Of a stretch of 64,000 bases of DNA, positions 9,003 through 63,599 are shown piece by piece. Position 1 is the stretch's first letter; the number at the start of each line of letters is the position of its first letter. Location: assembly GCF_963921235.1 (NCBI RefSeq), contig NC_086107.1, positions 95,110,001-95,174,000 on the forward strand. Reading direction: 5' to 3'. The DNA is from Mobula hypostoma. Lineage: Eukaryota. The position numbers and the translations under genes were made by a program. The notes under the pieces are model-generated. The model searched no databases, was not told where the DNA came from, and worked only from the letters and a program-made list of their open reading frames with translations.

Positions 9003-9792
9003 TTAGCTCAGGTCTTCAAGTCCCGGCAGCATCCACGTAAATTTTCTGTATTCTTTCAATCCAACTGAAAACTTTCCTGTACATAGGTGACTTTAGAACT
9101 ACACACAAATTAGGCCTCACCAATGTCTCATACAACTTCTCCTGTAGGCAGTATTTTGATTTATAAAGGCCAATGTGCCAGAAGTTCTCTTTGCAACACT
9201 ATCTACCTGTGACGTCACGTTCTTGGAAATATTATCTGTATGCCCATATCCCTCTACTTTACTGTACTCAATGCCCCTAATGTTCACTGTGTAAGTCCTA
9301 CAAATCTGCAAGCCTCATACTTTGCTGCATGAAATTGAATCTGCCATTTTCAACCCATTTTTCCAGCTAGTCTAGATTCTGCTGCAGGTTTTGACAGCCT
9401 TCCTCACTACCACAGCCTCAATCTTGGTGTCATTCAAAGTTCAAAGTAAATTTATTATCACCATATACAACCCTGAGATTCATTTTCTTGTGGGCATTCT
9501 CAATAAATCTATAGAATGATAACCATTATAGAATCAATGAAAGAAAGACTGCCCAACTAGGGGGTTCAACCAGAGTGCAGAAGACAATAACTGTGCAAAA
9601 ACAAAAAGAAGAAATAATAAATAAATAAGCAATAAATATTAAGAATGTGAGATAAAGAGTGCTTAAAAGTGAGTCCATGGGTTGTGGGAACATTTCAATG
9701 AATGGGGGAGATAAGTTATCCCCTTTGGTTCAAGAACCTGATGGTTGAGGGGTAATAACTGTTTCTGAACCTGGTGCTGGGGGTCCCTGATG

Positions 9793-14685: not shown

Positions 14686-15007
14686 GGCTGGCCTCCCCCA
14701 TACCCTGCCACATCTGGGCTGGCCTCTCCCCATACCCCACCACATCTGGGCTGGCCTCTCCCTATACCCTGGCACATCTGGGCTGGCCTTTCCCTCTACC
14801 CTGGCACATCTGGGCTGGCCTTTCCCTCTACCCTGGCACATCTGGGCTGGCCTCTCCCTATACCCTGGCACATCTGGGCTGGCCTTTCCCTCTACCCTGG
14901 CACGTCTGGGCTGGCCTCTCCCTATACCCTGGCACATCTGGGCTGGCCTCTCCCTCTACTCTGCCACATCTGGGCTGGCCTCTCCCTCTACTCTGCCACA
15001 TCTGGGC
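14686..15007. repeat. ~32-bp minisatellite (GCCACATCTGGGCTGGCCTCTCCCTCTACCCT)n, copy 1
   Basis: About 10 tandem units visible. Confidence 0.9.
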
Positions 15008-15321
15008 TCTCCCCCACTTCCTCTGGCAGATCGTTCCATATCCTTACCAGCCTCTGTGAGAAAAAAGATACTGACCCTGCAGAGGGGGGCGTGGAGATGG
15101 AGGGGTTGATAAGAAAGGTCGGGGGGCGTATGCAGGGGACGAGGGGAGGCAACTGATGCAGTCAGCTGGCAATGGGATGGGTGGAGGGGAGGATGGTTGT
15201 CAGGGTTGGGAGAGAGGGGAATGAGGAGGGAAGAGACAGGATGGAGAAAGAGGGAGATGGAGTGATCAGCCGGGAACAGTATTACCCTGCCTTTGACTAA
15301 CTCCTGTTCCTTCCCCTTCAG

Positions 15322-15540: not shown

Positions 15541-15639
15541 GTAAGTGAACCCCGCATCCGGGCCAGACTTCCCCTCTCTCCCGCGTCTGGGCTGTTCGTT
15601 CACCCACTCTCCCCACTACTGGACCACCCACACCTTGGC

Positions 15640-15930
15640 CAGCTGCTTCCTCTACCCCACCACATCTGGGCTGGTCTGTCCCTCTACCCCACCATGTCTG
15701 GGCTGGTCTCTCCCTCTACCCTGCCACATCTAGCCTGGCCTGGCCTGTCCCTCTACCCCGCCACATCTGGGCTGGCCTATCCCTCTACCCCGCCACATCT
15801 GGCCTGGTCTGTCCCTCTACCCTGCCACATCTGGCCTGGTCTGTCCCTCTACCCCGCCACATCTGGCCCGGCCTGTCCCTCTACCCCGCTACATCTGGGC
15901 TGGTCTCCCTCTGTCCCCCACATCTGGGCT
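15640..15930. repeat. ~32-bp minisatellite, copy 2 (PAQR4 intron 2)
   Basis: CCACATCTGGCCTGGTCTGTCCCTCTACCC units. Confidence 0.85.
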
Positions 15931-16144
15931 GGTTGGTTGCTCCCTCTCTCCCCTTCACACTCCTAGATCGGTCAAAGGGAACCATTACATCAGTGAGGAA
16001 GGGGTGTGGAGTATGTATTGTCTATAATCATCTTTCTCTCCCCCACCCCCTCACCCCCCTCTTCCCCCTTGGCTGCACCACCCACCTGTTGCTCCTGATT
16101 CCACCCCTCTCCCGCCCTCTGTCCCTCCCCCACCCCCACCCCAG

Positions 16145-34900: not shown

Positions 34901-36762
34901 GTTATGCAGTCCCCCCCCGTTCCCCCTCCCCCCATATCATGTACTGCCACTACAACGTCAACAAATTTCACGACATATGCTGGTGATATTAAACCTGACT
35001 GATGCTGGAGAGAGGTTGGGACTGTATTACTTGGAATATAGGAGACTGAGGTGAGTGACCGCGTACGGAGGTGTATAAAATCATGGTGAATGTGCACTTA
35101 GGCGGCACCGTAGTATGGTGGTTAAAACATGGAACGGCCTACAATGTTGTGCCGATCTTTTAACCTACTCTAAGATCAACCTAACCCTTTCATCCCACAT
35201 AGCCCTGCATTTTTCCTTTCATCTATGCACCTAATTAATAATCTTTCAGATGTCCCTCGCGTATCTGCCTCTGCCGTCACCCTGGCAGTGCGTTTTACAC
35301 ACCCACCACTCTGGGTTTAAAAAAAACTACCTCTTTACACCACCCCCTCCCCGTATGTTAATGCTTTACGGTGCCACTGACATGGTTCAGTTCCCACTGC
35401 CGTCAGAAAGCAGTTTGTACATTCTCCCCGCCACCATATTCCAGAAGATAAACGGGTTAGTAAATTGTGGGCATGTTTAGTCGGTGGTGGAAGCTGTACT
35501 GAGTGACTGTGGTCACAAGCTTGTAGGGACACTCAAACAGGAAGGCTTTTAAATTTCAGGTTGTACTCTATATATTCTCTGATAGTAAATGGAAGCATTG
35601 AAATAGAGTCTATGGCCCTATTTATCCTTGCTAATCCCAATCCCATTTGCCTGCGTGTGGCCCACATCCCTCTGAAGCAGCAGTTCCCAACCCTTTTTAT
35701 GCCATGGACCAATACCATTATCAAGGGGTTTGTGGACCCCAAGTTGGGAACCCCTCCTCTAAATCTTTCCTATCTGTGTATCTGTCCAGGACCTTTTCAA
35801 AGGAGGGAAGTGAGATTAGACTAGAAAGCTTCTTGCTTCAGGGCAAGGTTGATATAAAGCCAATGGCCACAGAGGGGAACTCTTAGTCACTCTGTCTCCT
35901 GTACAATACACAACTCTGAGGTCAAGAGGTTTCAAAGATTCAGGTTCCTAGATGTAAACATCACCAATAGCCAGTCCTGAGCCAGCCATTATTGAAATCA
36001 CAGCTAAGGCTCACCAACCTCTCTACTTCCTTGGGAGCCTTAAGAAATTCAGCATATCCCCCAACAACCCTCACCAATTTTTATTGATTTACTACTGAAA
36101 GCATCCTATCCTGATGCATTTCAGGTTGACACAGCAAATGTTCAGCCAAGACCACAAGAAACTGAAGAGAGTTGTGGACACAGCTCAGCACATTATGGAA
36201 ACCGGCCTCTTCCCCCACGGACACTGTCTACACTTCCTGCTGCAGCAGTAAAGCTGCCAGACTGATGAAAGACACCACCCACCCTGGAGACGTATTCCCT
36301 CTTCACCCCTCTCCCTTTGGGCAGAAGATACAAAAGCCTGGAAGCACATCCCACTAGGCTCAAGGACAGTTTTACCCCACTATTATTAGACTCTGGAATA
36401 GACCTCTTGTACGATAAGATGGACTCTTGATCTCTCAACCTACCTTGGCGTGGTCCTCGCAGGTTATTGCCTGCACTGCACTTTCTTTGTTACACTTTTT
36501 TCTGCATTCTGTTATTGTTTTCCCTTGTGCAACCTCAGTCCACTGACGTGGTGAAACGATCTGTGTGAATGGCATGTGGGCAAAGTGTTTCACTGTTCTG
36601 GGGTACACGTGACAACGACAGTCTAGAGGAGGGACATCTCTGTCAAATCATCGCTCATGAAAGAGGTACTTCCCTCGACTGTCACAGTGTACAGTTGGGA
36701 CATGTGGACAGAACCCTGCCTGGATAATTAACCGCACAACCGATCAGCCGAAGAACAAGCTG

Positions 36763-36768
36763 TTTATT
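36763..36768 (-). terminator. Probable PKMYT1 polyadenylation signal
   Basis: Plus-strand TTTATT (AATAAA on minus) about 510 nt past the stop codon. Confidence 0.7.
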
Positions 36769-37273
36769 TCAAGGAAACATACACAAAAACTCCAGCATTT
36801 TAATATGTACACAACGGCAGTGCGCAGAATGTAATCAGTTCCGATCCCGAGACTACAATACCTGGATCTGATCAGTGAACTCTGAGTGGATTGGGAGGGG
36901 AAAGATAGAGGGAGTGGGGTGGGGAGGGGGAGAGGAACCAGAATTGAACGCACAATACACTCCACTCTCTTGCCATGCAATGATAAAAGCCACCTCTGCC
37001 CACCATTCCACCCATCAAACTGGCAAAAGTATAGCCCAAGAGCCTCCCCCCCACTATGGAACGGTTAGCCCCACCCCCTTCTCCCCTCCCCGCCACCAGC
37101 GCTGCAGCAAAGGTACATCCCCACCCACTGCAGAATGGTGCCACAGTTTTCACACCTTCCCAGCTCCTCAGGAATGGTACTCCCCTGCCCGTACCCAATA
37201 CCGCCAGAAAAGGATTCATCCATACATCCCTATAAAATAACCATCACCACCCCCCCACAAAACAGTAATGCAC

Positions 37274-37427
37274 TCAGTCACATTCGGCTGATTCAAAGAG
37301 GCTGAGCAGGTTGCGGGGCTCCAAGGCTGGCCGGGCAGAAGGGGGGCCCATCCTGTCCTCCTCGGCGAAAGGGAGGGGCGAGTCCCCTCCGATACGGCTG
37401 AGGTTGGGGCTGGCTCGGTAGGATGTC
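37274..37427 (-). CDS. PKMYT1: PKMYT1 last coding exon (7/7)
   Basis: tgcag|G ACA TCC...EPRNLLSLFESAECD*. EPRNLLSLFE is the Myt1 C-terminal RNL cyclin-binding motif. Confidence 0.93.
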
Positions 37428-37519
37428 CTGCAGACAACGAAGGGGTGCGGGAATGGGTGGAGAGAGCAGAGACCAGACACAGTCACAATACCTCAGACAA
37501 CCTGATAGATAAACCCCCT

Positions 37520-38190
37520 AAACCCCTGGATTAGATCCAAGCCTGTAACCCACACCCAGGATCTGTTATTCTTTATATAAACCCACTTCCAGGATCTGTT
37601 ATTCTGTGTATATATATACACACACACAAACACCCAAATGCCTGGATTAGATCCCAGCCTGTAACCCTCTCCTGGGGATCTGTTATTCTATATATAAACA
37701 CCCCGAACATCTGGATTAGATCCCAGCCTGTAACCCTCTCCTGGCGATTATATATAAACCCCATCCCAGCCTGTAGTTCCTGAAATATAACCATGCTGAA
37801 TATGGCACACCTTTGGATACTGGAATGTTCAGCAGTCAGGTTTCGTGGGGTTGATGTGCTCCCTAATGAAGGTCTGGTGACACTGTTGAGAGAGGACAAA
37901 TTACTAATGCCAAAATTCAAGTGTCTCATCCCATCACACACTCCCAGGGTCAGATACAAGGTGAAGCTCCCTCCACACCATCCCATCACACACTCCCAGA
38001 GTCAGAAACGGGGTGAAGATCCCTCTGCACTGTCCCATTACACACCCAGGGTCAGATACAAGGTGAAGCTCCCTCCACACCGTCCCATCACACACTCCCA
38101 GAGTCAGAAACGGGGTGAAGATCCCTCTGCACTGTCCCATTACACGCTCCAAGGGTTAGACATGTAGTGAATCTCCCTCTACACCGTCCA
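37520..38190. repeat. Intronic tandem repeats (~60-bp CTGGATTAGATCCCAGCCTGTAACCC unit; ~50-bp CCCATCACACACTCCCAGGGTCAG unit)
   Basis: Several copies on each side of exon 6; copy number differs in the duplicate at 61400-61940. Confidence 0.8.
37811..37882 (-). CDS. PKMYT1: PKMYT1 coding exon 6/7
   Basis: caacag|T GTC...CAA AG|gtgtgc; VTRPSLGSTSTPRNL; phase compatible with both neighbours. Confidence 0.88.
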
Positions 38191-38219
38191 ACACAGATTT
38201 CTGCTCTCTTCACACTGAC

Positions 38220-38479
38220 CTGCCAGATAGAAAACTGAATTCATTGGATTCGAGGTCCTCGGAGTGAGATGGAAAGAGCTCCTTGGGCAGAGCAGTACTG
38301 TGGTGTCGCTCAAAGAAATCATCCCTGAAGATGCTGTCCTCCCAGTCACTGAAGAGGCTGCTGTCATTTAGGCCGGAGGGAGGGGGAGAAGATGGAGGCG
38401 CACAGGGGCGGCGGAAAAGCAACTGGAGCAGGGGGATGCAGAAAACTTGCCACAGGGAGCAGAGGAGGGACAGCAGCAA
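38220..38479 (-). CDS. PKMYT1: PKMYT1 coding exon 5/7 (membrane-association segment, TPP-like region)
   Basis: ccccag|TTG...GGC AG|gtcagt; LLLSLLCSLWQVF...DSSLFSDWEDS. Confidence 0.9.
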
Positions 38480-38769
38480 CTGGGGGGCAGAGACACACGC
38501 ACACAGTGAGACAGATAGAGAGACAGAAGCATTGGCAGTTGGGTAGGGTAGAGGGGAAGAGAGAAGTCACATTGTCAGTAACATCTTCACACACGATCAT
38601 AAGGAACAGCAGCAGGAGTAGCCATTCGGCCTATCAAGCCTGCTCTGTTCTCAGTTAGATCATGGCTAATCAGGCCATAGACCAATCCTGATTCTAGACT
38701 CAGATCTACCTACTTGCCTTTCCCCAATGACCCTTCATTCCCTGCTATCTACATGTTTGTTAAAACTAT

Positions 38770-42145: not shown

Positions 42146-43098
42146 TTAGCCCTTAGGAAGGAAATAAAAGGTGGTATCAAAACTAAACGTATGTTTGATG
42201 CCTTCTTCCTTTCCATGGTTACCCTAAGCCATCTCGCTTTTAAAATAAAATTATTATCAAAGGACATATATCACTATATACAACCCTGAGATGTATTTAC
42301 TCGAGGGCATAGTCAATAATTCTAATAACCATAATAGATTCAATGAAAGACCGCACCAACTGGGCGGACAAACAGGGTGCAAATGACAACAAACTGTACG
42401 ATTACAAAAATAAATAAGAAATAATAATGTTAATAAATAAATATCAAGAACTTGAGATGAGTCCTTGAAAATTAGTCCATTGGTTGCAGGAACAGTTCAG
42501 TGATGGGGCAAGTGAAGTTATCTATCCCCTTTGGCTCAAGAGCCTGATGGTTGAGGGACGGTAACCATTCCTGAACGTGGTGGCTTGAGTTCTGAAGGCA
42601 GCAGTGGGAAGGGAGTATGACCGGGGTGGTGGGGAGCCCTGATGATGGATGCTGCTTTCCTGCGACAACACTCTGTGTATAGATGTGCTCAATAGTGGGG
42701 AGGGCTTTACCCATGGATGGACTGGGCTGTATCCACTACGTTTAACTGGAATATACTTTTGTTGAGCTCTTTGAAAAATCTCTATGAAAGTCTTTTGAAG
42801 TTACTCTACAACAAACGTGAGGAATCTGGAAGAGCAAGGGGCAGGGACGAAACAAGAGGGTTGGGGCGGGGTGTTAAATGAGGAAGGGGGATCGATTTGT
42901 GATTAAGTAAGGGTTCAGGAAGAGAGGGTGAAAGGACAAAGGGGAGAGAGACAGAGAGGGAACAGTGATAAAATTATGGAAGAGAGTAGGTGACTGGTGT
43001 TTGACGGAGTTGGTAGGTAGGGGAGGGAGGAGCAGCAGGGAAAGGTGAACAGGGGGCGGGGGAGTGGGCCGGGGGTGAGAGCTGGGGTAAGCACTGAC

Positions 43099-43271
43099 CT
43101 GCCACAGGACCAGTGCTCGTTCCAAGCCTGACAGCATCAGCAGCCGGAGGTGCCTCCACCGCCGGACCCTGCGCAGGGCGGGCAGGGACAGCAGCTCCTC
43201 CACCGTGGGTCGCCGCTGGGGGTCTGGCTCCAGCATCGACCGCAGCAAGTCCCGCAGTGCGGGGGACAGAC
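43099..43271 (-). CDS. PKMYT1: PKMYT1 coding exon 4/7
   Basis: ccccag|GT CTG...TGG CAG|gtcagt; LSPALRDLLRSMLEPDPQRRPTVEELL (kinase subdomain XI). Confidence 0.95.
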
Positions 43272-43527
43272 CTGGGGAGGGAGAGGAACAAGAGTTACTG
43301 TTACCCCCGTCCTCGACCATAGGCTGGAGTCCGCGCTCTGTCTAGGAAGTCTGCAGCCCCCCTCCCCTGCACCCCGACGCGGGATCTCCACTCCACCTTT
43401 CCTTCTACCCCAGCGTGGCACTTCCGTTCACTCCCCACCACCCCCTGCCTGGATGCAGGAAGGCTGCCCGCACCCTGCTCGGACGTGGGACATCCCTGAC
43501 CCTTTGTCCTGAGCTCCCCTAGCTTAC

Positions 43528-43634
43528 CAGACACAAACTCTGGGGGCAGGTATCCTCGCCGCAGTCTCTGCCATCCCTCCCCGCTCTGAGGGAGCTCCAG
43601 GTTACTGCTGATGTCTAGGATCGACATTCCCAGG
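43528..43634 (-). CDS. PKMYT1: PKMYT1 coding exon 3/7
   Basis: tcacag|C CTG GGA...TCT G|gtaagc; LGMSILDISSNLELPQSGEGWQRLRRGYLPPEF. Confidence 0.95.
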
Positions 43635-43908
43635 CTGTGAAGGGAGAGAGAGACAGACAGAGAATTCATTCTGTCCCAGAGAGGGACAATGTGCCGAATA
43701 CCCAATACTGGGGGAAGCCTGGGTAGGGGACCAGGGGTGCAATGCCAATTCTGGACAGAGGGAGAGAGAATGCCTGATCTCAGAGGTAGGGAGTGGACAG
43801 GGAGTCCCCACAGCCCCAGAGAAGTGGAAGGAGTTAAGGATGGTGAGAGGGGTAGCATGTCCCGGGATGGGATGGGAAGGGACCGGACAGGACAGGAGGG
43901 GAAACAAG

Positions 43909-43914
43909 GTGTGT

Positions 43915-43997
<83 letters not shown>

Positions 43998-44000
43998 CGC
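43909..44000. repeat. (GT)n(GC)6 microsatellite
   Basis: Uninterrupted (GT)36 at 43917-43988, then (GC)6. Confidence 0.98.
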
Positions 44001-44082
44001 GGGAATTATAGAAGAGGGGAAGGGAAGGGGAGAGATGTGGGGTTGATGGGAGGGGGAAGCGGTGAAGAACGCCCCGCCTTAC

Positions 44083-44591
44083 CTGAAGACGTCGGCCGCT
44101 GTGCCGTAGACACCATCCAACAGCTCGGGCGCCATGTACCGTGGGTCTCCCTCCTGTGCCTCCTCCTCTTCCTCGTCCTTGGCCCTTCCTCCGCCCCGCT
44201 CCACCGGCAATACCAGGCCAAAGTCGCCCAGCTTGCAGATGCCCCCTGCCCCGAGCAGGACGTTGGCGGGCTTGACGTCGAGGTGTGCCAGGCCGCGCCG
44301 GTGGAGGTGGCCCAGGCCACACAACAGGTCGGAGAGCACCTCCCAGACACGGGGCTCGGGCAGGGCCCCCATCAGCTGCCCCTGCAGGCTGCCCCCCTCG
44401 CACAACTCCGTCTGGATATACAGCTGGCCCCGCTCCTCCCAAGCACGCACGAAGGTCAGCAGGTTGGGGTGGGGGCCCAGTCCTTCATGACGACGGGCCT
44501 CTGCGAGGCACCGCCGGCGGTCTCGCTCCCCTCGGAACGGCCGGCGCGAGCGCTTCACTGCGTACAGACGGCCATTCTCCCTGCTTCTTAC
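44083..44591 (-). CDS. PKMYT1: PKMYT1 coding exon 2/7 (kinase catalytic core)
   Basis: caccag|GTA...TTC AG|gtaagg; [32 protein letters not shown] (Wee1/Myt1 family signature). Confidence 0.97.
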
Positions 44592-44768
44592 CTGGTGGAG
44601 GGGAAGAGGGGTTTGTGGGGACAGGAGGAGCGGTGTAGAAAGAGGGGATGGACAGACAGCAAGGGAAAGACTATTTACTATCACGTTCCCAGCTCACTCA
44701 CTTCGTGCCCTGCCTGCCAATAACTCTTTGCTTTGTGGCACAGTGGGAAGAGCCACTGCCTGTGGTGT

Positions 44769-44781
44769 GCGCGCGCGTGCG

Positions 44782-44870
<89 letters not shown>
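44769..44870. repeat. (GC)n(AC)40 microsatellite
   Basis: (GC)6 at 44779-44790, then (AC)40. Confidence 0.98.
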
Positions 44871-44875
<5 letters not shown>

Positions 44876-45147
44876 ATCCCCACCTCTGGTTCTGCCTGGG
44901 CAGAGTTTAAACGCTCTTGCTGTGACCTCGTGGGATTAGTTGGAGGGGCAGGAAGTGTTGAGGAAGCAGGGAATCTCCAGAAGGATTTGGACAGACAGGG
45001 CAAATATGCAAAGAAACAGCATATGGAATACAGTGTAGGGAAATGTATGGTCATGCGATTTGGTAGAAGTGAAGGGAAACTTCTTTCTAAATGGGGAGTG
45101 AATTCAGAAAATGGAGGTGCGAACTGCAAGATTCCCTAAAGATTAAC

Positions 45148-48100
45148 ATAGAAACATAGAAAATAGGTGCAGGAGTAGGCCATTCGGCCCTTCGAGCCTG
45201 CACCACCATTCAGTATGATCATGGCTGATCATCCAACTCAGAACCCTGCACCAGCCTTCCCTCCATACCCTCTGATCCCCGTAGCCACAAGGGCCATATC
45301 TAACTCCCTCTTAAATATAGCCAATGAACTGGCCTCAACTGTTTCCTGTGGCAGAGAATTCCACAGATTCACCACTCTCTGTATGAAGAAGTTTTTCCTA
45401 ATCTCAGTCCTAAAAGGCTTCGCCTTTATCCTCAAACCGTGACCCCTCGTTCTGGACTTCCCCAACATCGGGAACAATCTTCCTGCATCTAGCCTGTCCA
45501 ATCCCTTTAGGATTTTATACGTTTCAATCAGATCCCCCTCAATCTTCTAAATTCCAACGAGTACAAGCCTAGTTCATCCAGTCTTTCTTCATATGAAAGT
45601 CCTGCCATCCCAGGAATCAATCTGGTGAACCTTCTTTGTACTCCCTCTATGGCAAGAATGTCTTTCCTCAGATTAGGGGACCAAAACTGCACACAATACT
45701 CCAGGTGTGGTCTCACCAAGGCCTTGTACAACTGCAGTAGTACCTCCCTGCTCCTGTACTCGAATCCTCTTGCTATAAATGCCAGCATGCCATTCGCCTT
45801 TTTCACCGCCTGCTATACCTGCATGCCCACTTTCAATGACTGGTGTATAATGACACCCAGGTCTCGTTGCACCTCCCCTTTTCCTAATCGGCCACCATTC
45901 AGATAATAATCTGTTTTCCTATTTTTGCCACCAAAGTGGATAACTTCACATTTATCCACATTAAATTGCATCTGCCATGAATTTGCCCACTCACCCAACC
46001 TATCCAAGTCACCCTGCATCCTCTTAGCATCCTCCTCACAGCTAACTCTGCCGCCCAGCTTCGTGTCATCCGCAAACTTGGAGATGCTGCATTTAATTCC
46101 CTCATCCAAGTCATTAATATATATTGTAAACAACTGGGGTCCCAGCACTGAGCCTTGCGGTACCCCACTAGTCACTGCCTGCCATTCTGAAAAGGTCCCG
46201 TTTATTCCCACTCTTTGCTTCCTGTCTGCTAACCAATGCTCTATCTACATCAATACCTTACCCCCAATACCGTGTGCTTTAAGTTTGCACACTAATCTCC
46301 TGTGTGGGACCTTGTCAAAAGCCTTTTGAAAATCCAAATATACCACATCCACTGGTTCTCCCCTATCCACTCTACTAGTTACATCCTCAAAAAATTCTAT
46401 GAGATTCGTCAGACATGATTTTCCTTTCACAAATCCATGCTGACTTTGTCTGATGATTTCACCGCTTTCCAAATGTGCTGTTATCACATCTTTGATAACT
46501 GATTCCAGCAGTTTCCCCACCACCGACATTAGGCTAACCAGTCTATAATTCCCCGGTTTCTCTCTCCCTCATTTTTTAAAAAGTGGGGTTACATTAGCCA
46601 CCCTCCAATCTTCAGGAACTAGTCCAGAATCTAACGAGTTTTGAAAAATTATCACGAATGCATCCACTATTTCTTGGGCTACTTCCTTAAGCACTCTGGG
46701 ATGCAGACCATCTGGCCCTGGGGATTTATCTGCCTTTAATCCCTTCAATTTACCTAACACCACTTCCCTACTAACATGTATTTTGCTCAGTTCCTCCATC
46801 TCACTGGACCCTCTGTCCCCTACTATTTCTGGAAGATTATTTATGTCCTCCTTAGTGAAGATAAAACCAAAGTAGTTATTCAATTGGTCTGCCATGTCCT
46901 TGCTCCCCATAATCAATTCACCTGTTTCAGTCTGTAGGGGACCTGCATTTGTCTTTACCAGTCTTTTCCTTTTTACATATCTATAAAAGCTTTTACAGTC
47001 AGTTTTTATGTTCCCTGCCAGTTTTCTCTCATAATCTTTTTCCCCCTTCCTAATTAAGCCCTTTGTCCTCCTCTGCTGAACTCTGAATTTCTCCCAGTCC
47101 TCAGGTGAGCCACTTTTTCTGGCTAATTTGTATGCTTCTTCTTTGGAATTGATACTATCCCTAATTTCCCTTGTCAGCCACGGGTGCACTACCTTCCTTG
47201 ATTTATTCTTTTGCCAAACTGGGATGAACAATTGTTGTAGTTCATCCATGCAATCTTTAAATGCTTGCCATTGCATATCCACCGTCAATCCTTTAAGTGT
47301 CATTTGCCAGTCTATCTTAGCTAATTCATGTCTCATACCTTCAAAGTTACCCCTCTTTAAGTTCAGAACCTTTGTTTCTGAATTAACTATGTCACTCTCC
47401 ATCTTAATGAAGAATTCCACCATATTATGGTCACTCTTACCCAAGGGGCCTCTCACGACAAGATTGCTAATTAACCCTTCCTCATTGCTCAAAACCCAGT
47501 CTAGAATAGCTTGCTCTCTAGTTGGTTCCTCGACATGTTGGTTCAAAAAACCATCCCGCATACATTCCAAGAAATCCCCTGCCTCAGCACCTTTACCAAT
47601 TTGGTTCACCCAATCTACATGTAGATTGAAGTCACCCATTATAACTGGTGTTCCTTTATTGCACACATTTCTAATTTCCTGTTTAATACCATCCCCACCC
47701 TCACTACTACTGTTAGGTGGCCTGTACACAACTCCCACCAGCGTTTTCTGCCCCTTAGTGTTATGCAGCTCTACCCATATCGATTCCACATCTTCCCAGC
47801 TAATGTCCTTCCTTTCTATTGCGTTAATCTCCTCTTTAACCAGCAACGCCACCCCACCCCACCTCCTTTTCTTTCATGTCTATCCCTCCTGAATATTGAA
47901 TATCCCTGAACATTGAGCTCCCATCCTTGGTCACCCTGGAGCCATGTCTCTGTGATCCCAACTATATCATAATCATTAATAACAATCTGCACTTTCAATT
48001 CATCCAACTTGTTACGAATGCTCCTGGCATTGACACACAAAGCCTTCAAGTGCTCTTTTACAACTCTCTTAGCCCTTATACAATTATGTTGAAAAGTGGC

Positions 48101-49141
48101 CCTTTTTGATGCTTGCCCTGGATTTGTCGGCCTGCCACTTTTACTTTTCTCCTTACTACTTTTTGCTTCTACCCTCACCTTACACCCCTCTGTCTCTCTG
48201 CACTGGTTCCCATCCCCCTGTTGTGAACTAACCTCCTCTCGCCTAGCCTCTTTAATTTGATTCCCACCCCCCAACCATTCTAGTTTAAAGTCACCTCAGT
48301 AGCCCTCGCTAATCTCCCTGCCGGGATATTGGTCCCCCTAGGATTCAAGTGTAATCCGTCCTTTTTGTACAGGTCACGCCTGCGCCAAAAGAGGTCCCAA
48401 TGATCCAAAAACTTGAATCCCTGCCTCCTGCTCCAATCCCTCAGCCACGCATTTATCCTCCACCTCATCGCATTCCTACTCTCACTGTCGCGTGACACAG
48501 GCAGTAATCCCGAGATTACTACCTTTGCGGTCCTTTTTCTCAACTCCCTTCCTAGCTCCCTATATTCTCCTTTCAGGACCTCATGCCTTTTCCTACCTAT
48601 GTCATTGGTACCTATATGTACCACGACCTCTGGCTCCTCACCCTCCCACTTCAGGATATCTTGGACACGATCAGAGATATCCCGGACCCTGGCACCAGGG
48701 AGGCAAACTACCATCCGGGTCTCTGGACTGCGTCCACAGAATCGTCTATCTGACCCCCTTACTATCGAGTCCCCTATCACAACTGCCCTCCTCTTCCTTT
48801 CCCTGCCCTTCTGAGCTACAGGGCCGGACTCTGTGCCGGAGGCACGGCCACTGTTGCTTCCCCCAGGTAAGCTGTACCCCCCAACAGTACTCAAAAAGGA
48901 GTACCTATTGTTAAGGGGCACAGCCACCGGGGTACTCTCTTATTACCTGACTCTTCCCCTTCCCCCTCCTAACCACAACCCACTTGTCTGCCTCCCGTAG
49001 CCCCGGTGTGACCACCTGCCTATAACTCCTCTCTATCAACTCCTCACTCTCCCTGACCAGACGAAGGTCATCGAGCTGCAGCTCCAGTTCCGTAACGCGG
49101 TCCCTTAGGAGCTGCATCTCGATGCACCTGGCGCAGATGTG
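45148..49141 (-). mobile_element. Near full-length young CR1 LINE (ORF1 zinc finger/SGNH esterase; ORF2 APE + RT)
   Basis: ORF1 CARC, GDSIVRG, HIGTND, DGLHL. ORF2 NARSIRNK, ITETWL, GDFN, SDH, KFADDTK. (TTTCTATG)n 3' tail; TAAC on both flanks (45144-45147, 49142-49145). Only a handful of stops and frameshifts. Confidence 0.93.
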
Positions 49142-49164
49142 TAACTTGCAGGTTGAGTCAGTAA

Positions 49165-49479
49165 ACACAAAGTAATCTGCAGATGCTGGGATCAAAGCAA
49201 CACTCACAACACGCTGGAGGAACTCACCAGGTTGAGCAGCATCAGTGGAAATGATGAGTCAACTTTTTGGGCCGGAACCCTTTGTCAGGACTGTAGAGGA
49301 AAGGGGCAGAGGCCCTATAAAGAAGGTGGGGGGAGGGTGGGAAGGAGAAGGCTGGTAAGTTCCAGGTGAAGGAAAACCAGCAAGGGAAAAGATAAAGAGG
49401 TGGGGAGGGGAAGCAGGGAGGTGATAGGCAGGAAAGGTGAAGAAGGAATAGAGGAAAACACAATGGGTAGTAAACACAA
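49165..49479 (-). mobile_element. Penelope-like pLTR fragment with degenerate hammerhead motif
   Basis: TGAGTCAGTAA duplicated at 49154-49164 and 49480-49490. Minus-strand CAGTCCTGACAAAGGGTTCCGGCCCAAAAAGTTGAC. Confidence 0.65.
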
Positions 49480-50389
49480 TGAGTCAGTAACAAGGCAGGC
49501 AGATTTCAAGAGGACTAAAACATAAAAGAAAGGGTGTAATGCTGAGGCTTTATAAGGCATTGATTAGGCCACACTTGGAGTATTGTGACCAGTTGTGAGC
49601 ACATCTAAAAGAATGTGATGGCACTCAAGAGTGTCCAGGGGAGCATCATGGGAATGATCCTGGCAATGAAAGGGTTAATGTATGAAACACTTTGGATGCA
49701 CTCTCTGGAGTTTAGCAGAGTGGTGGGGGGGGGGCATGGTGGAATGTCATCAAAACCTATCAAATATTGAAAGACCTCGATAGAGTGGATGTTTCCTATA
49801 GTGGGGGAGCCTAGAAGAGAGGAACAAACAGAGATGAAGGGATGTGTGCTCAGCCCACTGCTCTACTCTCTACACACCCATGACAGTGAGGCTAAGCACG
49901 GGTCAAAAGCCATCTATAAATTTGCTGATGATACCATTGTTGGCAGAATCTCAGATGGTGACCAGAGGGCATACAGGAGCAAGATATAACAGCTAGGTAA
50001 GTGGTGTCACAGCAACAAACCTTGTACTCAATGTCAGTGAAACCAAAGAGCTGATTGTGGACTTCAGAATGGGAACACACACCAATCCTTATCGAGGGAT
50101 CAGAAGTGGAGAGAGTGAGCAGTTTCAAGTTCCAGGGTGTCAATATTTCTGGAGACCTAACCTGGTTCCAACATATTGATGCAGCAAAAAAGAAAGGAAG
50201 ACAGAGGCTATATTTCATTATAGTTTGAGGAGATTTGGAATGTCACCTGAAATTTGTATGTGAGACAATAAACTCGACGTGGACTCTGACAGAATTGAGG
50301 GTGGAAGTGCTCGCCGGAAGGGGGAAAGAGGGAGAGGGCAAGGTGAGTGAAAGTGGGCATTGAGGCAGCGGGGGGGGGGGTTTCAGGGA

Positions 50390-53028
50390 AGCATTGGGAG
50401 CGATGGACTTAATGATAGACTGTTTAGTTTGTGGAATCTTACAAGAAAGCATTCAAAAATGGCTCCTAACTGAAGCAGAACTCACATTTAAAAGAGCAGT
50501 TGAAATTGCTGTATCAATGGAAACAACAGGTAGAAACACAATTGAGTTGCAGTCAGGAATGAAAGTGAAAGTGAACAAAATTGCAACATCTAAACAAAAA
50601 TCAGCCTGGCTGAACAAATTGTGTTACCATTGTGGCAGGGGCTCACATACACCAAATAAATGCAGATTTAAAGGTAAAACTTGCAGAAAATATAACAGCA
50701 GGACATGTGCAAAGAGCATGTTGGTCAGACAAAAAATCAATGGACTGCACAGGGAAGAGAAAAAGATAAGAAGTCAAGTTGCAGCTTCAAAAAGATCCCC
50801 AAGCTGCATACTGTTGATGCAAGATCTGATGATGAGAATGACACAGGACTTAGTAGCCTTGAGATTTACAATGTGAAAACTTAACAATAGAGAAGCAATA
50901 TGGCTGACATCAGAAGTGAATTAATTAAAATGGAATTGGACATTTGCTCAGCTGTTTCATTCATTCAGTCCACGAAGTCACTGAAGCCTGCAGACATTCA
51001 GCTAAGAATTTATACTGGACAAAAGATAACTCCTGTGGGAATGACATTTGTAACACTGAAATATACCAACCAACAAGCCAGATTGGGTTTGTATGTGGTA
51101 AAAACAGGAGGCCAGTATTGTGGGGCTGTGATCGGCTAAGCGGACAAAAACTTGATTGGCAATCTATCCAGAATTTGTATGCCACATCCCCTGCAGTAGA
51201 GACAGCTGAAAGCAAATTGAAAAGGTTTTGGATGATGCCACAGCAGAGTTCGAGGATGACCTAGAAAATCCAAGCGATTCAAGAGTAAAATAAGACCATA
51301 AGACAAAGGAGCAGAAGCCAGCCATTCGGCCCATCAAATGAAAATGCCTATCGGGTTCATGATACCATTGGTGATAGCAAGTGAGTTCGATTGCACGGAG
51401 GCTGAAGGAATTTCTAAGGTTGACCGTAACCCATGGGCAATGCAAGTGGTCCCATTAGCCAAAGACGACAGGGTTGTCAGCATCTGTGGTGATTTTAAGA
51501 TGATCATCGACCCAGTACTGAAAGTAGATCAATACCCTCTGCCCACAGTAGAGGATGTACTTGCAAACCTCTGCAGCGAAACCCTTCAAAGCTGATTTAG
51601 CTGAGGCCTATCTACAGATAGAGATGGAAGAAGAGTCCAAGGTGTTTCTCACCATAAACACGCACAAGGGTTTTATCATCACAATAGGCTTATTTTTGGA
51701 GTAGGACCTGCATCTGCACTCTGACAGAAAGCTATAGACCAGATGCTGGAAGTCTGCTCAGGCACGATGTTACCTGGATGACATAATTGCTACCAGTAAG
51801 AATTATCGAGGAACATCTCCAAAATCTCAAGACAGTATTAAAAGGTTAGAGGATTATGGGCTCAGAGCATGGTGTGACAAGTGTGAATTCTTTAAACCAA
51901 GCATCACTTACTGTGGTAACACCATGGACACACAAGGATTACACAAGTGTGCCGACAAAATTCAAGCAGTGGTGGATTCCCTGAGGCCAAAGGATGTGTT
52001 AGAGTTGCGGTCCTTTTTAGGATTTGTCAATTATTATAACAGGCTCCTGGCAAACTTGGCTACTGTACTCCACCCCCTTGAACTCATTACTGCAGATCAG
52101 GAAGAAATGGCAGTGGACAAATCGGTGCGAGATGTCTTTCAAAAATGTAAGTGACCTCAGACACTGTACTCACACATTATGATCTACATCATACAGTGAA
52201 ACTTGCAGGTGACTGTGCCTTACAGTATCGGTGCAGTCATGTCACAGGTTATGAGTGACGGAAGTGAATACCCCATAGACTTTGCATCACACTCCCTTAC
52301 CACCGCAGAGAAAAATTACGCATAGATTGACAGAGAGGCCTTGAGTCTGGTTTGGGGCATAGAAGGTTTCAACCACTGATTGTATGGGAGAGAGCTTACC
52401 CTTATTACTGATCATCAACCACGCGGGTCCATTTCCAATCCACAGAAATGTGTTACACTAACAGCAGCAGCTCAAATGCAGAGACCTGAGATTGTTTCAA
52501 TTGTTAGCGAAGAAAGGTGTCCAGAACTATCAGAACCTCTTCTTGCAGTCTCAGACTCTTACAACCACCACATAGGAGGCCACAGAACCTGAGATTGTTT
52601 CACAGCCACAAGCCTTTCCTACCAAGCAGAGTGACCCTTCCCGTCAGGAAAGCCATTATTCCACAAGAGGAAGAAACAATCCATAGTAATTAAATCTTTA
52701 GACCTGAATGGGACAACTTAAAAGTTTACTATGCTGTGGATGTCTACATAGTAGCTATATTATATAGACATTCTCCATTGAGTTGGGAGTTGATAGCTAA
52801 GCAGGGAAGAGTGTTGTATATTTAGTATTTGAGTAATAAGGTAAATATATTTGATAAAGATTTTTTTGTACTTAGCTAATTCATGAGTTATATATAAAAG
52901 TACATGAATGGCATACATCATTATGTCACCATGTCATCTGTGCTCACCTCATGAAAAGTAAAAACAAAACTAGAGTACAGGCATTACTCTTCGATTAGTT
53001 TTATGTTTTGGAGTTACGAAACAATACA
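50390..53028 (+). mobile_element. Degenerate Ty3/Gypsy LTR retrotransposon with 3' LTR
   Basis: Gag knuckle CYHCGRGSHTPNKC, protease-like MELDICSA, RT ICGDFK..QYPLP, LRSFLGFVNYY, RNase H TDHQP. Integrase largely missing. Purine tract 52800-52811, then a TG...CA LTR at 52812-53028. Confidence 0.85.
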
Positions 53029-53198
53029 CCATGGCTATGGGGGAAGGGCAGGGGTAAGATTGTGGGGGAGAAGAATGATGAGGGATGAGGGTTTGGGCCA
53101 GCGAGGGAGCCACAGGCAAGGGGGGGGCGGTGAACTGAGGGATGGAGGAGGTTGGAGTGAGGTGGGAAGATGGAGAGAAGGGAGGGGTGGTAACCCAC

Positions 53199-53534
53199 CT
53201 TAAAAACATCCCCAAAGGAGCCGCGCCCCAGCTGACTGATCCTCTGGAAACACTGCTCAAAGTAGGGCAGGTCCTTGCTGCCATCGTAGCTCCCCTTGTC
53301 GAGGGGCAATGAAGCTGAGACACTCTGGGGCCGTGTCCGGGTCCAACTCCTCACCCTGCTGGGGAAGACCCGTGTGAGGGGCAGCCCGCCCCGGACAGGG
53401 GGCCGGGGGGTGGGGCTTTCTCCCGCCGCCAAACCTTCCCCCCGGCCCTTCTTCCTTGAGAAGTGGGGCTCCTGAGCCTGCTGGAAGAAGGCAGGTACAG
53501 GGAGGGGGGTGCGGGCCAGTGGGGACTCCCCCAT
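53199..53534 (-). CDS. PKMYT1: PKMYT1 first coding exon (exon extends 5' to 53581)
   Basis: MGESPLARTPLPVPAFFQQA..FSRKKGR...YFEQCFQRISQLGRGSFGDVFK|gtgggt; acceptor tctccgtag| at 53582. The spliced CDS totals 1611 nt (536 aa). Confidence 0.93.
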
Positions 53535-54049
53535 GGGGTCAGCCCCGCTCGAGTCACGTCCTTCCCGTGCCGGCGTATCTTCTACGGAGAGAGGAAAGAA
53601 AGAGAGAGTGAGACAGAGACAGAGGGACGGACAGACAGAGTGTCAGTCAGAGACAGAGAGAAGACGAGTGTGGGGGGAGTAGGCAAGAGAGCCAGACCGA
53701 GAGAGACATTACCAATCCTCCCTTCATAATTCCTCCCTCCTCCTGACTTCAATTTACCCCTCCCCTCCATATCCTCCTTTCTTTCCTCATTCTCCATTTC
53801 CCATGCATTCCTCTCGTTTACCTTCCACTCCCCTTCTCCCTGCTACTCCACGACCCCGCTCCCCTCTCTGCCTTGACCATCCTCTATCCTCTCCCATTCT
53901 TCCCCGTTCGTCTCCCCCATTCCCACTCTCCACTTCGCCTCACAACCCGTCTCCTCCATTCTATCCCTTACCCCATTCTCCCGTATTGTTTCCCTCATAC
54001 CCACGCCCCCATCCCCTCACCTCACCTCACCTCCCCTCCCCTCCCAGAC

Positions 54050-60261: not shown

Positions 60262-60299
<38 letters not shown>

Positions 60300-60311
60300 C
60301 AGCTGCTCTGC

Positions 60312-62240
60312 CCAAGACCACAAGAAACTGAAGAGAGTTGTGGACACAGCTCAGCACATTATGGAAACCGGCCTCTTCCCCCACGGACACTGTCTACACT
60401 TCCTGCTGCAGCAGTAAAGCTGCCAGACTGATGAAAGACACCACCCACCCTGGAGACGTATTCCCTCTTCACCCCTCTCCCTTTGGGCAGAAGATACAAA
60501 AGCCTGGAAGCACATCCCACTAGGCTCAAGGACAGTTTTACCCCACTATTATTAGACTCTGGAATAGACCTCTTGTACGATAAGATGGACTCTTGATCTC
60601 TCAACCTACCTTGGCGTGGTCCTCGCAGGTTATTGCCTGCACTGCACTTTCTTTGTTACACTTTTTTCTGCATTCTGTTATTGTTTTCCCTTGTGCAACC
60701 TCAGTCCACTGACGTGGTGAAACGATCTGTGTGAATGGCATGTGGGCAAAGTGTTTCACTGTTCTGGGGTACACGTGACAACGACAGTCTAGAGGAGGGA
60801 CATCTCTGTCAAATCGTCGCTCGTGAAAGGGGTACTTACCCCGACTGTCACAGTGTACAGTTGGGACATGAGGACAGAATGCAATGATAAAAGCCACCTC
60901 TGCCCACAGCTCCACCCATCAAACTAGCAAAAGTACAGCCCAAGAGACCCCCCCCACTATGGAATGGTTAGCCCCACCCCCTTCTCCCCTCCCCGCCACC
61001 AGCGCTGCAGCAAAGGTACATCCCCACCCACTGCAGAATGGTGCCACGGTTTTCACACCTTCCCAGCTCCTCAGGAATGGTACTCCCCTGCCCGTACCCA
61101 ATACCGCCAGAAAATGATTCATCCATACATCCCTATAAAATAACCCTCACCAGCCCCCCAGCAGTAACGCACTCAGTCACACTCGGCCGATTCAAAGAGG
61201 CTGAGCAGGTTGCGGGGCTCCAAGGCTGGCCGGGCAGAAGGGGGGCCCATCCTGTCTTCCTCGGCAAAAGGGAGGGGCAAGTCCCCTCCGATACGGCTGA
61301 GGTTGGGGCTGGCTCGGTAGGATGTCCTGCAGACAACGAGGGGGTGTGGGAATGGGTGGAGAGAGCAGAGACCAGACACAGTCACAATACCTCAGACAGC
61401 CTGATAGATAAACCCCCGAACCCCTGGATTAGATCCCAGCCTGTAACCCACACCGGGGATCTGTTATTCTATACTGTATATAAACACCCTGAACGTCTCG
61501 ATTAGATCCCAGCCTGTAACCCTCTCCTGGGGATCTGTTATTCTATATATAAACACCCCATCCCAGCCTGTAGTTCCTGAAATATAACCATGCTGAATAT
61601 GGCACACCTTCGGATACTGGAATGTTCAGCAGTCAGGTTTCGTGGGGTTGATGTGCTCCCTAATGAAGGTCTGGTGACACTGTTGAGAGAGGACAAATTA
61701 CTAATGACAAAATTCAAGTGGCTCATCCTGTCACATACTTCCAGGGTCAGAAACAGAGTGAAGCTCCCGCCACACCATTCCGTCACACACACACACCCAG
61801 GGTCAGATACAAGGTGAAGCTCCCTCCACACCGTCCCATCACACACTCCCAGAGTCAGAAACGGGGTGAAGATCCCTCTGCACTGTCCCATTACACGCTC
61901 CAAGGCTTAGACATGTAGTGAATCTCCCTCTACACCATCCAACACAGATTTCTGCTCTCTTCACACTGACCTGCCAGATAGAAAACTGAATTCATTGGAT
62001 TCGAGGTCCTCGGAGTGAGACAGAAAGAGCTCCTTGGGCAGAGCAGTACTGTGGTGTCGCTCAAAGAAATCATCCCTGAAGATGCTGTCCTCCCAGTCAC
62101 TGAAGAGGCTGCTGTCATTTAGGCCGGAGGGAGGGGGAGAAGATGGAGGCGGACAGGGGCGGCGGAAAAGCAACTGGAGCAGGGGGATGCAGAAAACTTG
62201 CCACAGGGAGCAGAGGAGGGACAGCAGCAACTGGGGGGCG
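60312..62240 (-). pseudogene. Segmental duplicate of the PKMYT1 3' end (exons 62230-61971, 61679-61608, 61326-61173, plus 3' UTR and flank)
   Basis: Direct repeat of 36146-38490. Same exon lengths (260, 72, 154), intact splice sites and open frame, 4 amino-acid changes. A 262-bp deletion removes the AATAAA. Confidence 0.9.
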
Positions 62241-63599
62241 GACAGACAGACGCACGCATACACGGATATCACCCCAACACACAGAGACAGATGTGTACAG
62301 AGACAATCCACACCCAGGTCGGCTGGAAGGGAGCGAGATGGATTCAGGGCAAGTGAAATCACAGCACACTCTCACCCACTGTGTTTTCAATGGGGTAGGG
62401 TTTCATGGTGGGACAATTATTTACACAGCTGTGGGAAGGCGTGTGATGGCATGAGGCAAAACTGCTTGAGAGGGATTAGTTCCCTTCGCTTTTGGCTGCC
62501 ACATGTAGACAAACTGTTGTCAAGCTAAAGTGGTGGGACTTGTCAAGCTGGCTAGACTGGTAAAGTGACGGTACCTGAACCAGGGTGGTATGCAAGCAGC
62601 AAGCGGTGTATGCCGACAACACACAGGAGATTGGGCATTTAATGTTATTTGGGTGTTTCCTGGTGACTGGTACCGGGAATGCTTCATTCTTCTGTAATGG
62701 AGTCTACACTGACATAACCATTGCCAAATTTGCACTCGATTTGGCGGGGTTAGTTGGTAAATCGGCTTATCGTTGTGTGCCAAGATACAGTGGAGGGGGA
62801 AGTCCGTTTTGTGTACCTGTCATTTCACTACATCATACCATTGAGAGCACAAGGGAAAACAATAACAATAATGTGTTGCAGTTGCAGAGAAAGTGCAGAC
62901 AGACAATAAGGTTCAAGGGCCACGGCAAGGTAGACTGTGAGGTCAAGAATCCCATCTTATCATACTAGAGGATCGTAGGATGGACTTCTGTATTGGCTTT
63001 TGTATCTTCTGCCCAATGAGAGGGGGGAGAAGAGAGAATGTCTGGGGAGGATGGGGACTTTCCTGAGGCAGCAGGAAATGTAGACAGAGTCCACGGAGGG
63101 GAGGCTGGTTTCCGTGACATGCCGAGCGGTGTCCATGACTTCTTGCAGTCAAGGGCAGAGCACACCAAACTGAGATGCATCCGGTGAGGGTCGACGGTTC
63201 ACACCGAATTTCCTTAACCTCCTGAGGAAGTAGAGGTGTTGGTGACATCTGCGTGGTTAGACCACGACAGGCGGATGGTATGCAAACTTGGGAACTTAAA
63301 GTTGTACGTTACTCCTGTAGAGCATGGTGAAGTGTGGCAAATGAGGTGGGATTGGAGTAGGATTAGTGGTAGGGGCAGGCAGGGCACCTCCGTAGAGGGT
63401 GCAGTGAAGGCTCACTAGGATGAAGCCTTTCATTTACAAGTGAGGCTGGATCTGTGCTCCCTGAATTTCACAGGGTCACTACCCTCTAGCTAAAGAAATT
63501 CCTTCTTATCTCAAACATCTTCTCCAAGTCCATTCTATCTAGGCCTTTCAATATTTGCTGTGGACGCCCAATGGCTGAACTATGACGGGACTCTTTAAG

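What the first reader, a model, noticed from the sequence alone, without database searches (positions are those of the whole stretch)
43917..44862. PKMYT1 catalytic exon is bracketed by a perfect 84-bp microsatellite inverted repeat
(GT)36(GC)6 at 43917-44000 is the exact reverse complement of (GC)6(AC)36 at 44779-44862, including the matching GC caps. In the pre-mRNA a GU tract ~190 nt before the acceptor can pair with an AC tract ~80 nt after the donor, looping out the 509-nt kinase-core exon. Fish are known to use AC/GT pairing within an intron to bridge splice sites. Here the pairing spans an exon, predicting frameshifting exon skipping (509 is not a multiple of 3) or back-splicing to a single-exon circRNA. 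Repeat length could then tune the dose of a CDK1-inhibitory kinase.
Basis: partly seen in the sequence, partly recalled or inferred. Interest (0 to 1): 0.72.

Follow-up and report, generated by a model that had tools for sequence, protein, structure and literature searches.

The report
Matched inverted microsatellites bracket PKMYT1 exon
Two mirror-image GT/GC microsatellites really do flank the kinase-core exon of a stingray PKMYT1 gene and are too alike and too close to be coincidence, but the gene is spliced normally in the RNA data seen, and any regulatory role is untested.

Summary
43917-44000 is the exact reverse complement of 44779-44862. The full match is 92 nt, (GT)40(GC)6, with one mismatch.

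The arms lie in introns 1 and 2 of a stingray PKMYT1 gene (minus strand). They sit 187 nt before the acceptor and 82 nt after the donor of the 509-nt exon 2.

This is not chance. Only 13 (GT)>=36(GC)>=6 tracts exist in the 3.48-Gb genome, and these two are 778 nt apart in inverted orientation. Flank homology stops within about 15 nt of the repeats. A recent DNA-level copying or conversion event is therefore the likeliest origin.

As RNA the arms are predicted to pair (-212 kcal/mol, pair probability 0.99) and loop out exon 2. That is the classic architecture for back-splicing or exon skipping.

RNA contigs from two species show only the normal exon 1-2-3-4 mRNA. They could not have shown rare or circular forms. 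In a relative about 5% diverged, the left-arm interval is 66 nt shorter, so the matched pair is not conserved.

Verdict: a real, young, probably neutral oddity and a good circRNA candidate. There is no evidence for dose tuning.

The parts
44769..44870 (-). Upstream arm in the pre-mRNA (3' part of intron 1). On the + strand it reads (GC)4 GT (GC)6 (AC)40. In the RNA it reads (GU)40(GC)6 AC (GC)4. It ends 187 nt before the exon 2 acceptor.
43909..44000 (-). Downstream arm in the pre-mRNA (5' part of intron 2). On the + strand it reads (GT)3 GG (GT)36 (GC)6. In the RNA it reads (GC)6 (AC)36 CC (AC)3. It starts 82 nt after the exon 2 donor. There is one mismatch to the other arm, at 43916.
44083..44591 (-). 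PKMYT1 exon 2, 509 nt. It encodes the kinase core and aligns to residues 52-215 of human PKMYT1 chain 9lgn_A. It is single copy in the genome.
44592..53198 (-). Intron 1, 8,607 nt, GT..AG. It is largely filled with high-copy repeats. It holds no AC run of 4 or more units that could pair with its own GU arm.
   Evidence: (joint 44589-53197, skips 8607)
43635..44082 (-). Intron 2, 448 nt, GTAAGG..CAG. It holds no GU run of 4 or more units that could pair with its own AC arm.
53199..53534 (-). Coding part of PKMYT1 exon 1, from the start codon to ...DVFK.
43526..43634 (-). PKMYT1 exon 3. It is contiguous with exon 2 in the RNA contigs.
   Evidence: table 8, records 8 and 19

Best explanation
The two arms are a young, lineage-specific pair of compound alternating purine-pyrimidine microsatellites in introns 1 and 2 of a stingray PKMYT1 gene.

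Origin (inferred). They owe their identity, (GT)40(GC)6 on both sides, to a DNA-level event and not to selection on the RNA. One possibility is that one arm was copied in inverted orientation during repair of a break. The other is that two nearby tracts were homogenised by gene conversion between inverted repeats.

RNA pairing (predicted by folding). In the pre-mRNA the arms can form a duplex of about 92 bp. The twelve G-C pairs sit at the exon-proximal end. The duplex closes a 778-nt loop that holds exon 2 with both of its splice sites.

Expected effect (inferred from the known behaviour of inverted intronic repeats). A minor diversion of transcripts into a 509-nt single-exon circular RNA, and perhaps some frameshifting exon 2 skipping. 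The strong splice sites (polypyrimidine tract plus CAG; CAG|GTAAGG) keep the normal mRNA as the main product.

Shown: the sequence, its rarity, the gene model and normal splicing.
Inferred: the origin by copying or conversion, pairing in vivo, and any circular RNA.
For: Exact complementarity and the 92-nt extent.

Rarity:
- 13 places genome-wide for the 84-nt arm.
- 10,481 arrays of (GT)>=17 in 3.48 Gb, about 1 per 332 kb.
- No opposite-strand pair closer than 24 kb among the first 100 listed.
- 0 of 30 fetched arrays has an inverted partner within 1.5 kb.
- None of the 8 other fetched single loci of the long compound tract has an inverted partner within the stretch fetched.

Flanks of other compound tracts are unrelated to each other, so this is not a transposon family.

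Gene and exon model.

Pairing: the arms pair in the minimum-energy and centroid structures. Duplex energy is -212.1 kcal/mol, and 91 of 92 in-register pairs have probability above 0.5. Each arm is the only GU or AC run in its intron apart from one 8-nt run, so the arms have no competing partner.

Normal mRNA with exon 2 at contig depth 103-245 in runs X2, X3 and X6.

Young age: one unspliced contig of organism H spans the left-arm position with 116 letters where the window has 182.

Inverted repeats of 30-40 nt suffice for circularisation in human minigenes (PMC4201285, abstract and passages read).
Against: - No back-splice or skip junction was seen. The data (assembled contigs, apparently of ordinary RNA-seq) could not have shown one.
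- Homology does not extend beyond the repeats. The outer flanks score 19 against a shuffle mean of 15.6, sd 2.0, maximum 23. A duplication is therefore inferred only from repeat identity and proximity.
- Equal length alone is weak evidence. Among the 11 other long tracts the GT counts are 40, 38, 40, 44, 38, 51, 55, 48, 43, 62 and 41, so 2 of 55 pairs are equal. Three tracts of exactly 40 units hint at a possible length artefact that I could not test.
- Liang and Wilusz report that low-complexity repeats and over-stable hairpins can inhibit circularisation (PMC4201285).
- A (UG)40 tract may instead fold into poly(UG) quadruplexes (bioRxiv 10.1101/2025.04.22.650042, start of the abstract in a search listing only). 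The folding program does not model these.
Confidence: 0.5

Rival explanations
1. Coincidence. Two independent microsatellites grew in neighbouring introns and happen to be alike, with no shared origin and no effect.
For: The window is locally rich in such arrays. It holds 3 arrays of 17 or more units in 64 kb, against a genome mean of about 0.19 per 64 kb. (GC)6-7 caps are the usual form of the compound tract. Lengths near 40 units are common among the long tracts. Flank homology is not significant.
Against: Only 13 such long compound tracts exist in 3.48 Gb. Two of them within 1 kb has a chance of about 4.5e-5 by my arithmetic. Clusters elsewhere are all same-strand; no other inverted pair appears in any list or sample.
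Confidence: 0.12
2. The pairing is a selected RNA switch, and its repeat length tunes exon 2 skipping or circularisation and hence the dose of the CDK1-inhibitory kinase.
For: Strong predicted pairing across the exon. The arms sit within about 200 nt of the splice sites, where teleost AC and GT elements act (PMC4691745). Skipping would shift the frame (509 nt).
Against: Normal splicing is the assembled form in 3 runs of 2 species. The left-arm interval is 66 letters shorter in a relative about 5% diverged. The cross-exon arrangement is described as inhibitory and avoided in zebrafish (PMC4691745, discussion). GT arrays are sparse in this genome, about 1 per 332 kb, so a genome-wide use of such pairing is unlikely here.
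Confidence: 0.06
3. The arms act singly and not as a pair. They serve as binding sites for repeat-binding splicing proteins (UG repeats for TDP-43 or CELF, CA repeats for hnRNP L; recalled from the literature, not read here), or the UG arm folds as poly(UG) quadruplexes. These would modulate exon 2 definition without a duplex.
For: The UG arm is transcribed about 870 nt before its partner, so it has time to fold or be bound first (sequence order). Long poly(UG) tracts form quadruplex folds of 12 repeats (10.1101/2025.04.22.650042, start of the abstract in a search listing only).
Against: Nothing here tests protein binding. This model does not explain why the two arms are identical in composition and length.
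Confidence: 0.12
4. The arms are real, but their exact equality is an artefact of assembly or consensus calling in long dinucleotide runs.
For: Exactly 40 GT units are seen in 2 of the 11 other long compound tracts (L040, L042) as well as in this pair's arms (the left arm carries one substitution). No raw reads were examined.
Against: Other tracts have 38, 41, 43, 44, 48, 51, 55 and 62 units, and arrays up to 283 nt exist, so there is no hard cap. RNA contigs of the same species break at both arm positions (table 1), which is consistent with long repeats at both sites.
Confidence: 0.1
5. The relevant level is DNA. Two strongly Z-DNA-prone tracts in inverted orientation affect polymerase passage, nucleosome placement or local recombination, including a risk of inverting the 778-bp exon segment. 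The RNA is incidental.
For: (GC)6 and long (GT)n runs are alternating purine-pyrimidine sequences, the class prone to Z-DNA (general knowledge; the ZSeeker preprint PMC11844381 was seen in a search listing only). The 92-bp inverted homology is present.
Against: No data here bear on DNA conformation or inversion. All RNA contigs show exon 2 in the normal orientation.
Confidence: 0.08

Closest known systems
Inverted intronic repeats (reverse-complementary matches, e.g. Alu pairs) that flank circularised exons (Liang and Wilusz 2014, PMC4201285)
   Same: Complementary sequences lie in the two introns that immediately flank an exon, close to both splice sites. They are far longer than the 30-40 nt shown to suffice. 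The exon is a long internal second exon.
   Different: The arms are pure dinucleotide microsatellites and not transposon copies. The duplex is perfect and very stable, and low complexity and over-stability were reported to inhibit circularisation in some constructs. No circular RNA has been observed here.
(AC)m-(GT)n bridged introns of teleosts and lamprey (Lin et al. 2016, PMC4691745)
   Same: The same repeat chemistry occupies the same positions relative to splice sites. The AC run is within 200 nt after a 5' splice site and the GU run within 200 nt before a 3' splice site.
   Different: There the two runs lie in one intron and bring its own ends together. Here they lie in neighbouring introns and enclose an exon, the arrangement that paper calls inhibitory and finds largely avoided in zebrafish. 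The 3' splice site here has a good polypyrimidine tract. The host is a cartilaginous fish with sparse GT arrays.
Palindrome arms kept identical by gene conversion (e.g. sex-chromosome palindromes; recalled, not read here)
   Same: Two inverted arms around a unique spacer are near-identical.
   Different: The arms here are 92 bp and not kilobases. They consist only of simple repeats, and homology stops at the repeat ends.

Membership tests
PKMYT1 (Myt1) orthologue | The kinase-core sequence is closest to PKMYT1 and not to Wee1 or other kinases | tested here: met
   E 3.2e-54 to human PKMYT1 chains against 1e-18 for Wee1-like kinases; 97% identity to the Hypanus sabinus PKMYT1 protein; all 7 coding exons were found in order on the minus strand.
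(AC)m-(GT)n bridged intron (Lin et al. 2016) | AC run near the 5' splice site and GT run near the 3' splice site of the same intron | tested here: not met
   intron 1 has only the GU run (198 nt from its 3' end) and no AC run of 4 or more units. Intron 2 has only the AC run (93 nt from its 5' end) and no GU run.
(AC)m-(GT)n bridged intron (Lin et al. 2016) | Splicing independent of U2AF2, often with a weak polypyrimidine tract | not testable with these tools
   The 3' ends of introns 1 and 2 are pyrimidine-rich, which gives no sign of such dependence.
Inverted-repeat-flanked circular RNA exon | [quoted passage not shown] | tested here: met
   92 nt, -212 kcal/mol, pair probability 0.99.
Inverted-repeat-flanked circular RNA exon | Canonical splice sites on both sides of the enclosed exon | tested here: met
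   AG|G at 44591 and CAG|GTAAGG at 44083, both used in RNA contigs.
Inverted-repeat-flanked circular RNA exon | An observed back-splice junction (donor 44083 joined to acceptor 44591) | not testable with these tools
   laid assembled contigs only.
Inverted duplication or palindrome maintained by conversion | Arm homology extends into unique flanking sequence | tested here: not met
   the outer flanks score 19 against a shuffle mean of 15.6 and maximum of 23. The inner flanks score 11 against a mean of 13.6. Only about 10 of 15 in-register matches adjoin the repeat.
Conserved regulatory element | The same arrangement is present in related species | tested here: inconclusive
   in organism H one contig crosses the left-arm position with 116 letters against 182 here, so that arm is much shorter. 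The right arm could not be judged. No other relative's DNA was available.

The most novel reading that the evidence does not exclude
The matched arms are actively kept identical. This could be by gene conversion between inverted microsatellites, or by selection for a full-length duplex. Their pairing would make PKMYT1 exon 2 a high-yield circular RNA, or a skip-to-decay switch. Length changes in either arm would then alter kinase output. That would be a natural cross-exon counterpart of the teleost intron-bridging repeats, in a cartilaginous fish.
Probability: 0.1. Interest if true: 0.6.

Novelty: new member of a known kind. Interest (0 to 1): 0.3.

Why it matters
If the duplex forms in vivo, this locus would be a clean natural test of two things. 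The first is whether pure dinucleotide repeats can drive exon circularisation or skipping. The second is how microsatellite length variation feeds into splicing of an essential cell-cycle kinase.

It would also be an example of two inverted microsatellites evolving in concert.

As it stands it is a well-documented structural curiosity. It has a clear, cheap experimental test but no evidence of function.

Tried and rejected
- RNA evidence for skipping or back-splicing. The look-up of sequencing runs listed no holder on record as RNA. Three runs guessed as RNA proved to hold spliced contigs. Contigs cannot show rare or circular forms. Table rows beside the masked stretch 43636-43671 were dropped; even the certain 43634-to-44083 joint is missing from table 5. 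The lack of a skip joint is therefore no evidence either way.
- Genome-wide count of inverted pairs with a wide-gap pattern: rejected by the tool as 'bad gap'.
- Pattern with a letter set over 35 places: rejected and shortened to the limit.
- Count of arrays of exactly 40 units, to test for a length artefact. The artefact question stays open.
- Transposon origin of the arms. Flanks of 8 + 11 other compound tracts are unrelated. One (L040) sits in a SINE-like sequence with a loosely similar GGAGGAAAC motif. Alignment of this pair's own flanks is not significant.
- A second copy of exon 2 for comparison within the genome: none.
- Earlier notes of this scan: nothing in 4 look-ups.
- Literature on circular RNAs flanked by GT/AC microsatellites. 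Searches listed no paper whose title or abstract start, as shown in the listing, concerned such a case. I opened none of them except the two cited. This is not proof that none is in print.
- Two literature searches failed on term format.

Full report
WHAT IS THERE

Window 43917-44000, (GT)36(GC)6, is letter for letter the reverse complement of 44779-44862, (GC)6(AC)36. The match is in fact longer.
- The left arm is (GT)3 GG (GT)36 (GC)6 at 43909-44000.
- The right arm is (GC)4 GT (GC)6 (AC)40 at 44769-44870.
- As reverse complements they align as (GT)40(GC)6, 92 nt, with one mismatch at 43916.
- Tandem Repeats Finder reports 40.5 copies for each tract.
- About 10 of the next 15 outward positions also match in register. 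A local alignment of 260 nt of outer flank on each side scores 19 against a shuffle mean of 15.6 (sd 2.0, maximum 23). The inner flanks score below their shuffle mean. The homology therefore ends essentially with the repeats.

THE GENE

The enclosed open frame matches human PKMYT1 crystal-structure chains at E 3.2e-54, against about 1e-18 for Wee1-like kinases. It is 97% identical to the PKMYT1 protein of the stingray Hypanus sabinus. The window therefore comes from a close relative of that species.

A tblastn of that protein places seven coding exons in order on the minus strand:
- exon 1: 53534-53199
- exon 2: 44591-44083
- exon 3: 43634-43526
- exon 4: about 43269-43096
- exons 5-7: 38452-37277

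Exon 2 is 509 nt, bounded by ...CCACCAG|G and CAG|GTAAGG. In the pre-mRNA the (GU)40(GC)6 arm ends 187 nt before the acceptor, and the (GC)6(AC)n arm starts 82 nt after the donor.

IS IT MORE THAN CHANCE?

The genome is held: 3,475,679,493 bases, with the window on contig C45.
- Perfect (GT)>=17 arrays number 5,327 + 5,154 = 10,481, about one per 332 kb.
- Under uniform placement, my arithmetic gives about 16 inverted pairs within 1 kb genome-wide for that loose class.
- Among the first 100 places listed (C1, 0-32 Mb) there are several same-strand clusters, but the nearest opposite-strand pair is 24 kb apart.
- 0 of the 30 fetched loci has an inverted partner of 8 or more units within 1.5 kb.
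- The compound form (GT)>=10(GC)>=6 occurs 425 times.
These are the two arms here, three inside one giant same-strand GT/GC array on C36, and eight single loci.
- The chance that any two of 13 random places fall within 1 kb is about 4.5e-5 (my arithmetic).
- Flanks of the other compound tracts are unrelated to each other and to these arms, so no transposon family carries them.

Equality of length is weaker evidence on its own. The other long tracts have 40, 38, 40, 44, 38, 51, 55, 48, 43, 62 and 41 GT units, so 2 of 55 pairs are equal. Two further loci with exactly 40 units raise the question of a length artefact. Arrays of up to 283 nt exist, so there is no hard cap.

ORIGIN

The exon and its inner flanks are single copy. 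They are ancestral, being aligned in organism H. The simplest reading is that one tract was copied in inverted orientation across the exon, or that two tracts were homogenised by conversion. This is inference from proximity and identity. No tool result shows the event itself.

RNA STRUCTURE

Folding the 1,061-nt pre-mRNA stretch 44920 to 43860 pairs the two arms in both the minimum-energy (-559.7 kcal/mol) and centroid structures. The two arms alone give -212.1 kcal/mol. In context, 91 of 92 in-register pairs have probability above 0.5, with a mean of 0.99. Neither intron holds another AC or GU run that could compete, apart from one 8-nt run. The model ignores proteins, kinetics and poly(UG) quadruplex folds.

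RNA DATA

No run is on record as RNA. Runs X2 and X3 (organism A, 0 mismatches) and X6 (organism B, 6 differences in exon 2) nevertheless hold spliced contigs. These join 43099-43269, 43526-43634, 44083-44589 and 53197-53583 at contig depths 103-245 (tables 5 and 8). Exon 2 is therefore included in the dominant mRNA in two species.

A low-depth contig (depth 4.5) covers intron 2 up to the left arm. Contigs break at both arms (table 1).

No skip or back-splice joint is listed, but this is uninformative for three reasons:
- Contigs drop rare forms.
- 516 joints were not shown.
- Rows beside the masked 43636-43671 stretch were dropped, including the certain exon 2-exon 3 joint.

CONSERVATION

Run X19 (organism H) has one unspliced 1,804-letter contig at depth 19. 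It aligns to 43020-43857 (49 differences, 51 gap letters) and to 44040-44758. Between these it has 116 letters where the window has 182 (table 8). The left-arm interval is thus 66 letters shorter.

That a 31-mer-based contig crosses it at all suggests a pure repeat of under about 30 nt. This rests on my understanding of such assemblies and is not a tool result.

The contig runs 81 letters into the masked right-arm zone and ends there, so the right arm cannot be judged.

COMPARISON WITH WHAT IS KNOWN

Lin et al. 2016 (PMC4691745; abstract, sections 5 and 9 and discussion passages read) show that in zebrafish AC runs after the 5' splice site co-occur with GT runs before the 3' splice site of the same intron, and not across exons. 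They call the cross-exon arrangement inhibitory and largely avoided, citing circular splicing in humans. The signature is reported for teleosts and lamprey. 'Shark' does not occur in the main text. Here each arm sits at the position typical of that class, but its partner lies across the exon. The locus therefore fails the defining test for that family.

It does meet the sequence criteria of inverted-repeat-flanked circular RNA exons. Liang and Wilusz 2014 (PMC4201285; abstract and passages read) found 30-40 nt sufficient. They also found that low-complexity repeats and over-stable hairpins can inhibit.

VERDICT

The mechanistic premise, that the arms can pair and loop out a frameshifting exon, is supported by folding. 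The proposed outcomes are untested. The dose-tuning idea has no support, and the shorter arm in a relative counts against it.

My odds:
- The arms are real and share an origin: about 0.8.
- A measurable circular or skipped product exists: about 0.35-0.4.
- The arrangement is an adaptive regulator: about 0.05-0.1.

Noticed in passing
window 36129-38502 and 60294-62255: A segment of about 2.3 kb holding PKMYT1 exons 5-7 and its 3' end is duplicated in direct orientation (94-98% identity for most of it; one overlapping 527-nt piece 86%) upstream of exon 1 of the same gene. The copy keeps open exon-like matches of 71-90% identity (three of four at 89-90%) to the Hypanus sabinus protein.
   Followed up: partly
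window 902-1498 and 8408-9003: A 600-nt direct duplicate at 97.5% identity lies 7.5 kb apart.
   Followed up: no
genome-wide (G000): The compound tract has a strong polarity. (GT)10(GC)6 occurs 425 times, but the same letters read backwards occur only 50 times. This is unexplained.
   Followed up: no
L044-L046 (G000:C36:100.79 Mb): A giant array of alternating GT and GC blocks, over 2 kb long (single blocks up to 283 nt), abuts a run of N.
   Followed up: no
L040, L042 and both arms here: Several independent long compound tracts have exactly 40 GT units (81 nt): L040, L042, and both arms here (the left arm with one substitution). This could be chance or a length artefact of the assembly.
   Followed up: partly
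window about 44930-50500: Intron 1 is packed with high-copy repeats. A reverse-transcriptase-like open frame starts near 44930 on the + strand (...QKDLDRQGKYAKKQHMEYSVGKCMVMRFG...). Contig depth rises from tens to 10^4-10^5.
   Followed up: no
window 14686-15008 and 15628-15933: Two arrays of a 32-nt tandem repeat, about 10 copies each, lie 600 nt apart.
   Followed up: no
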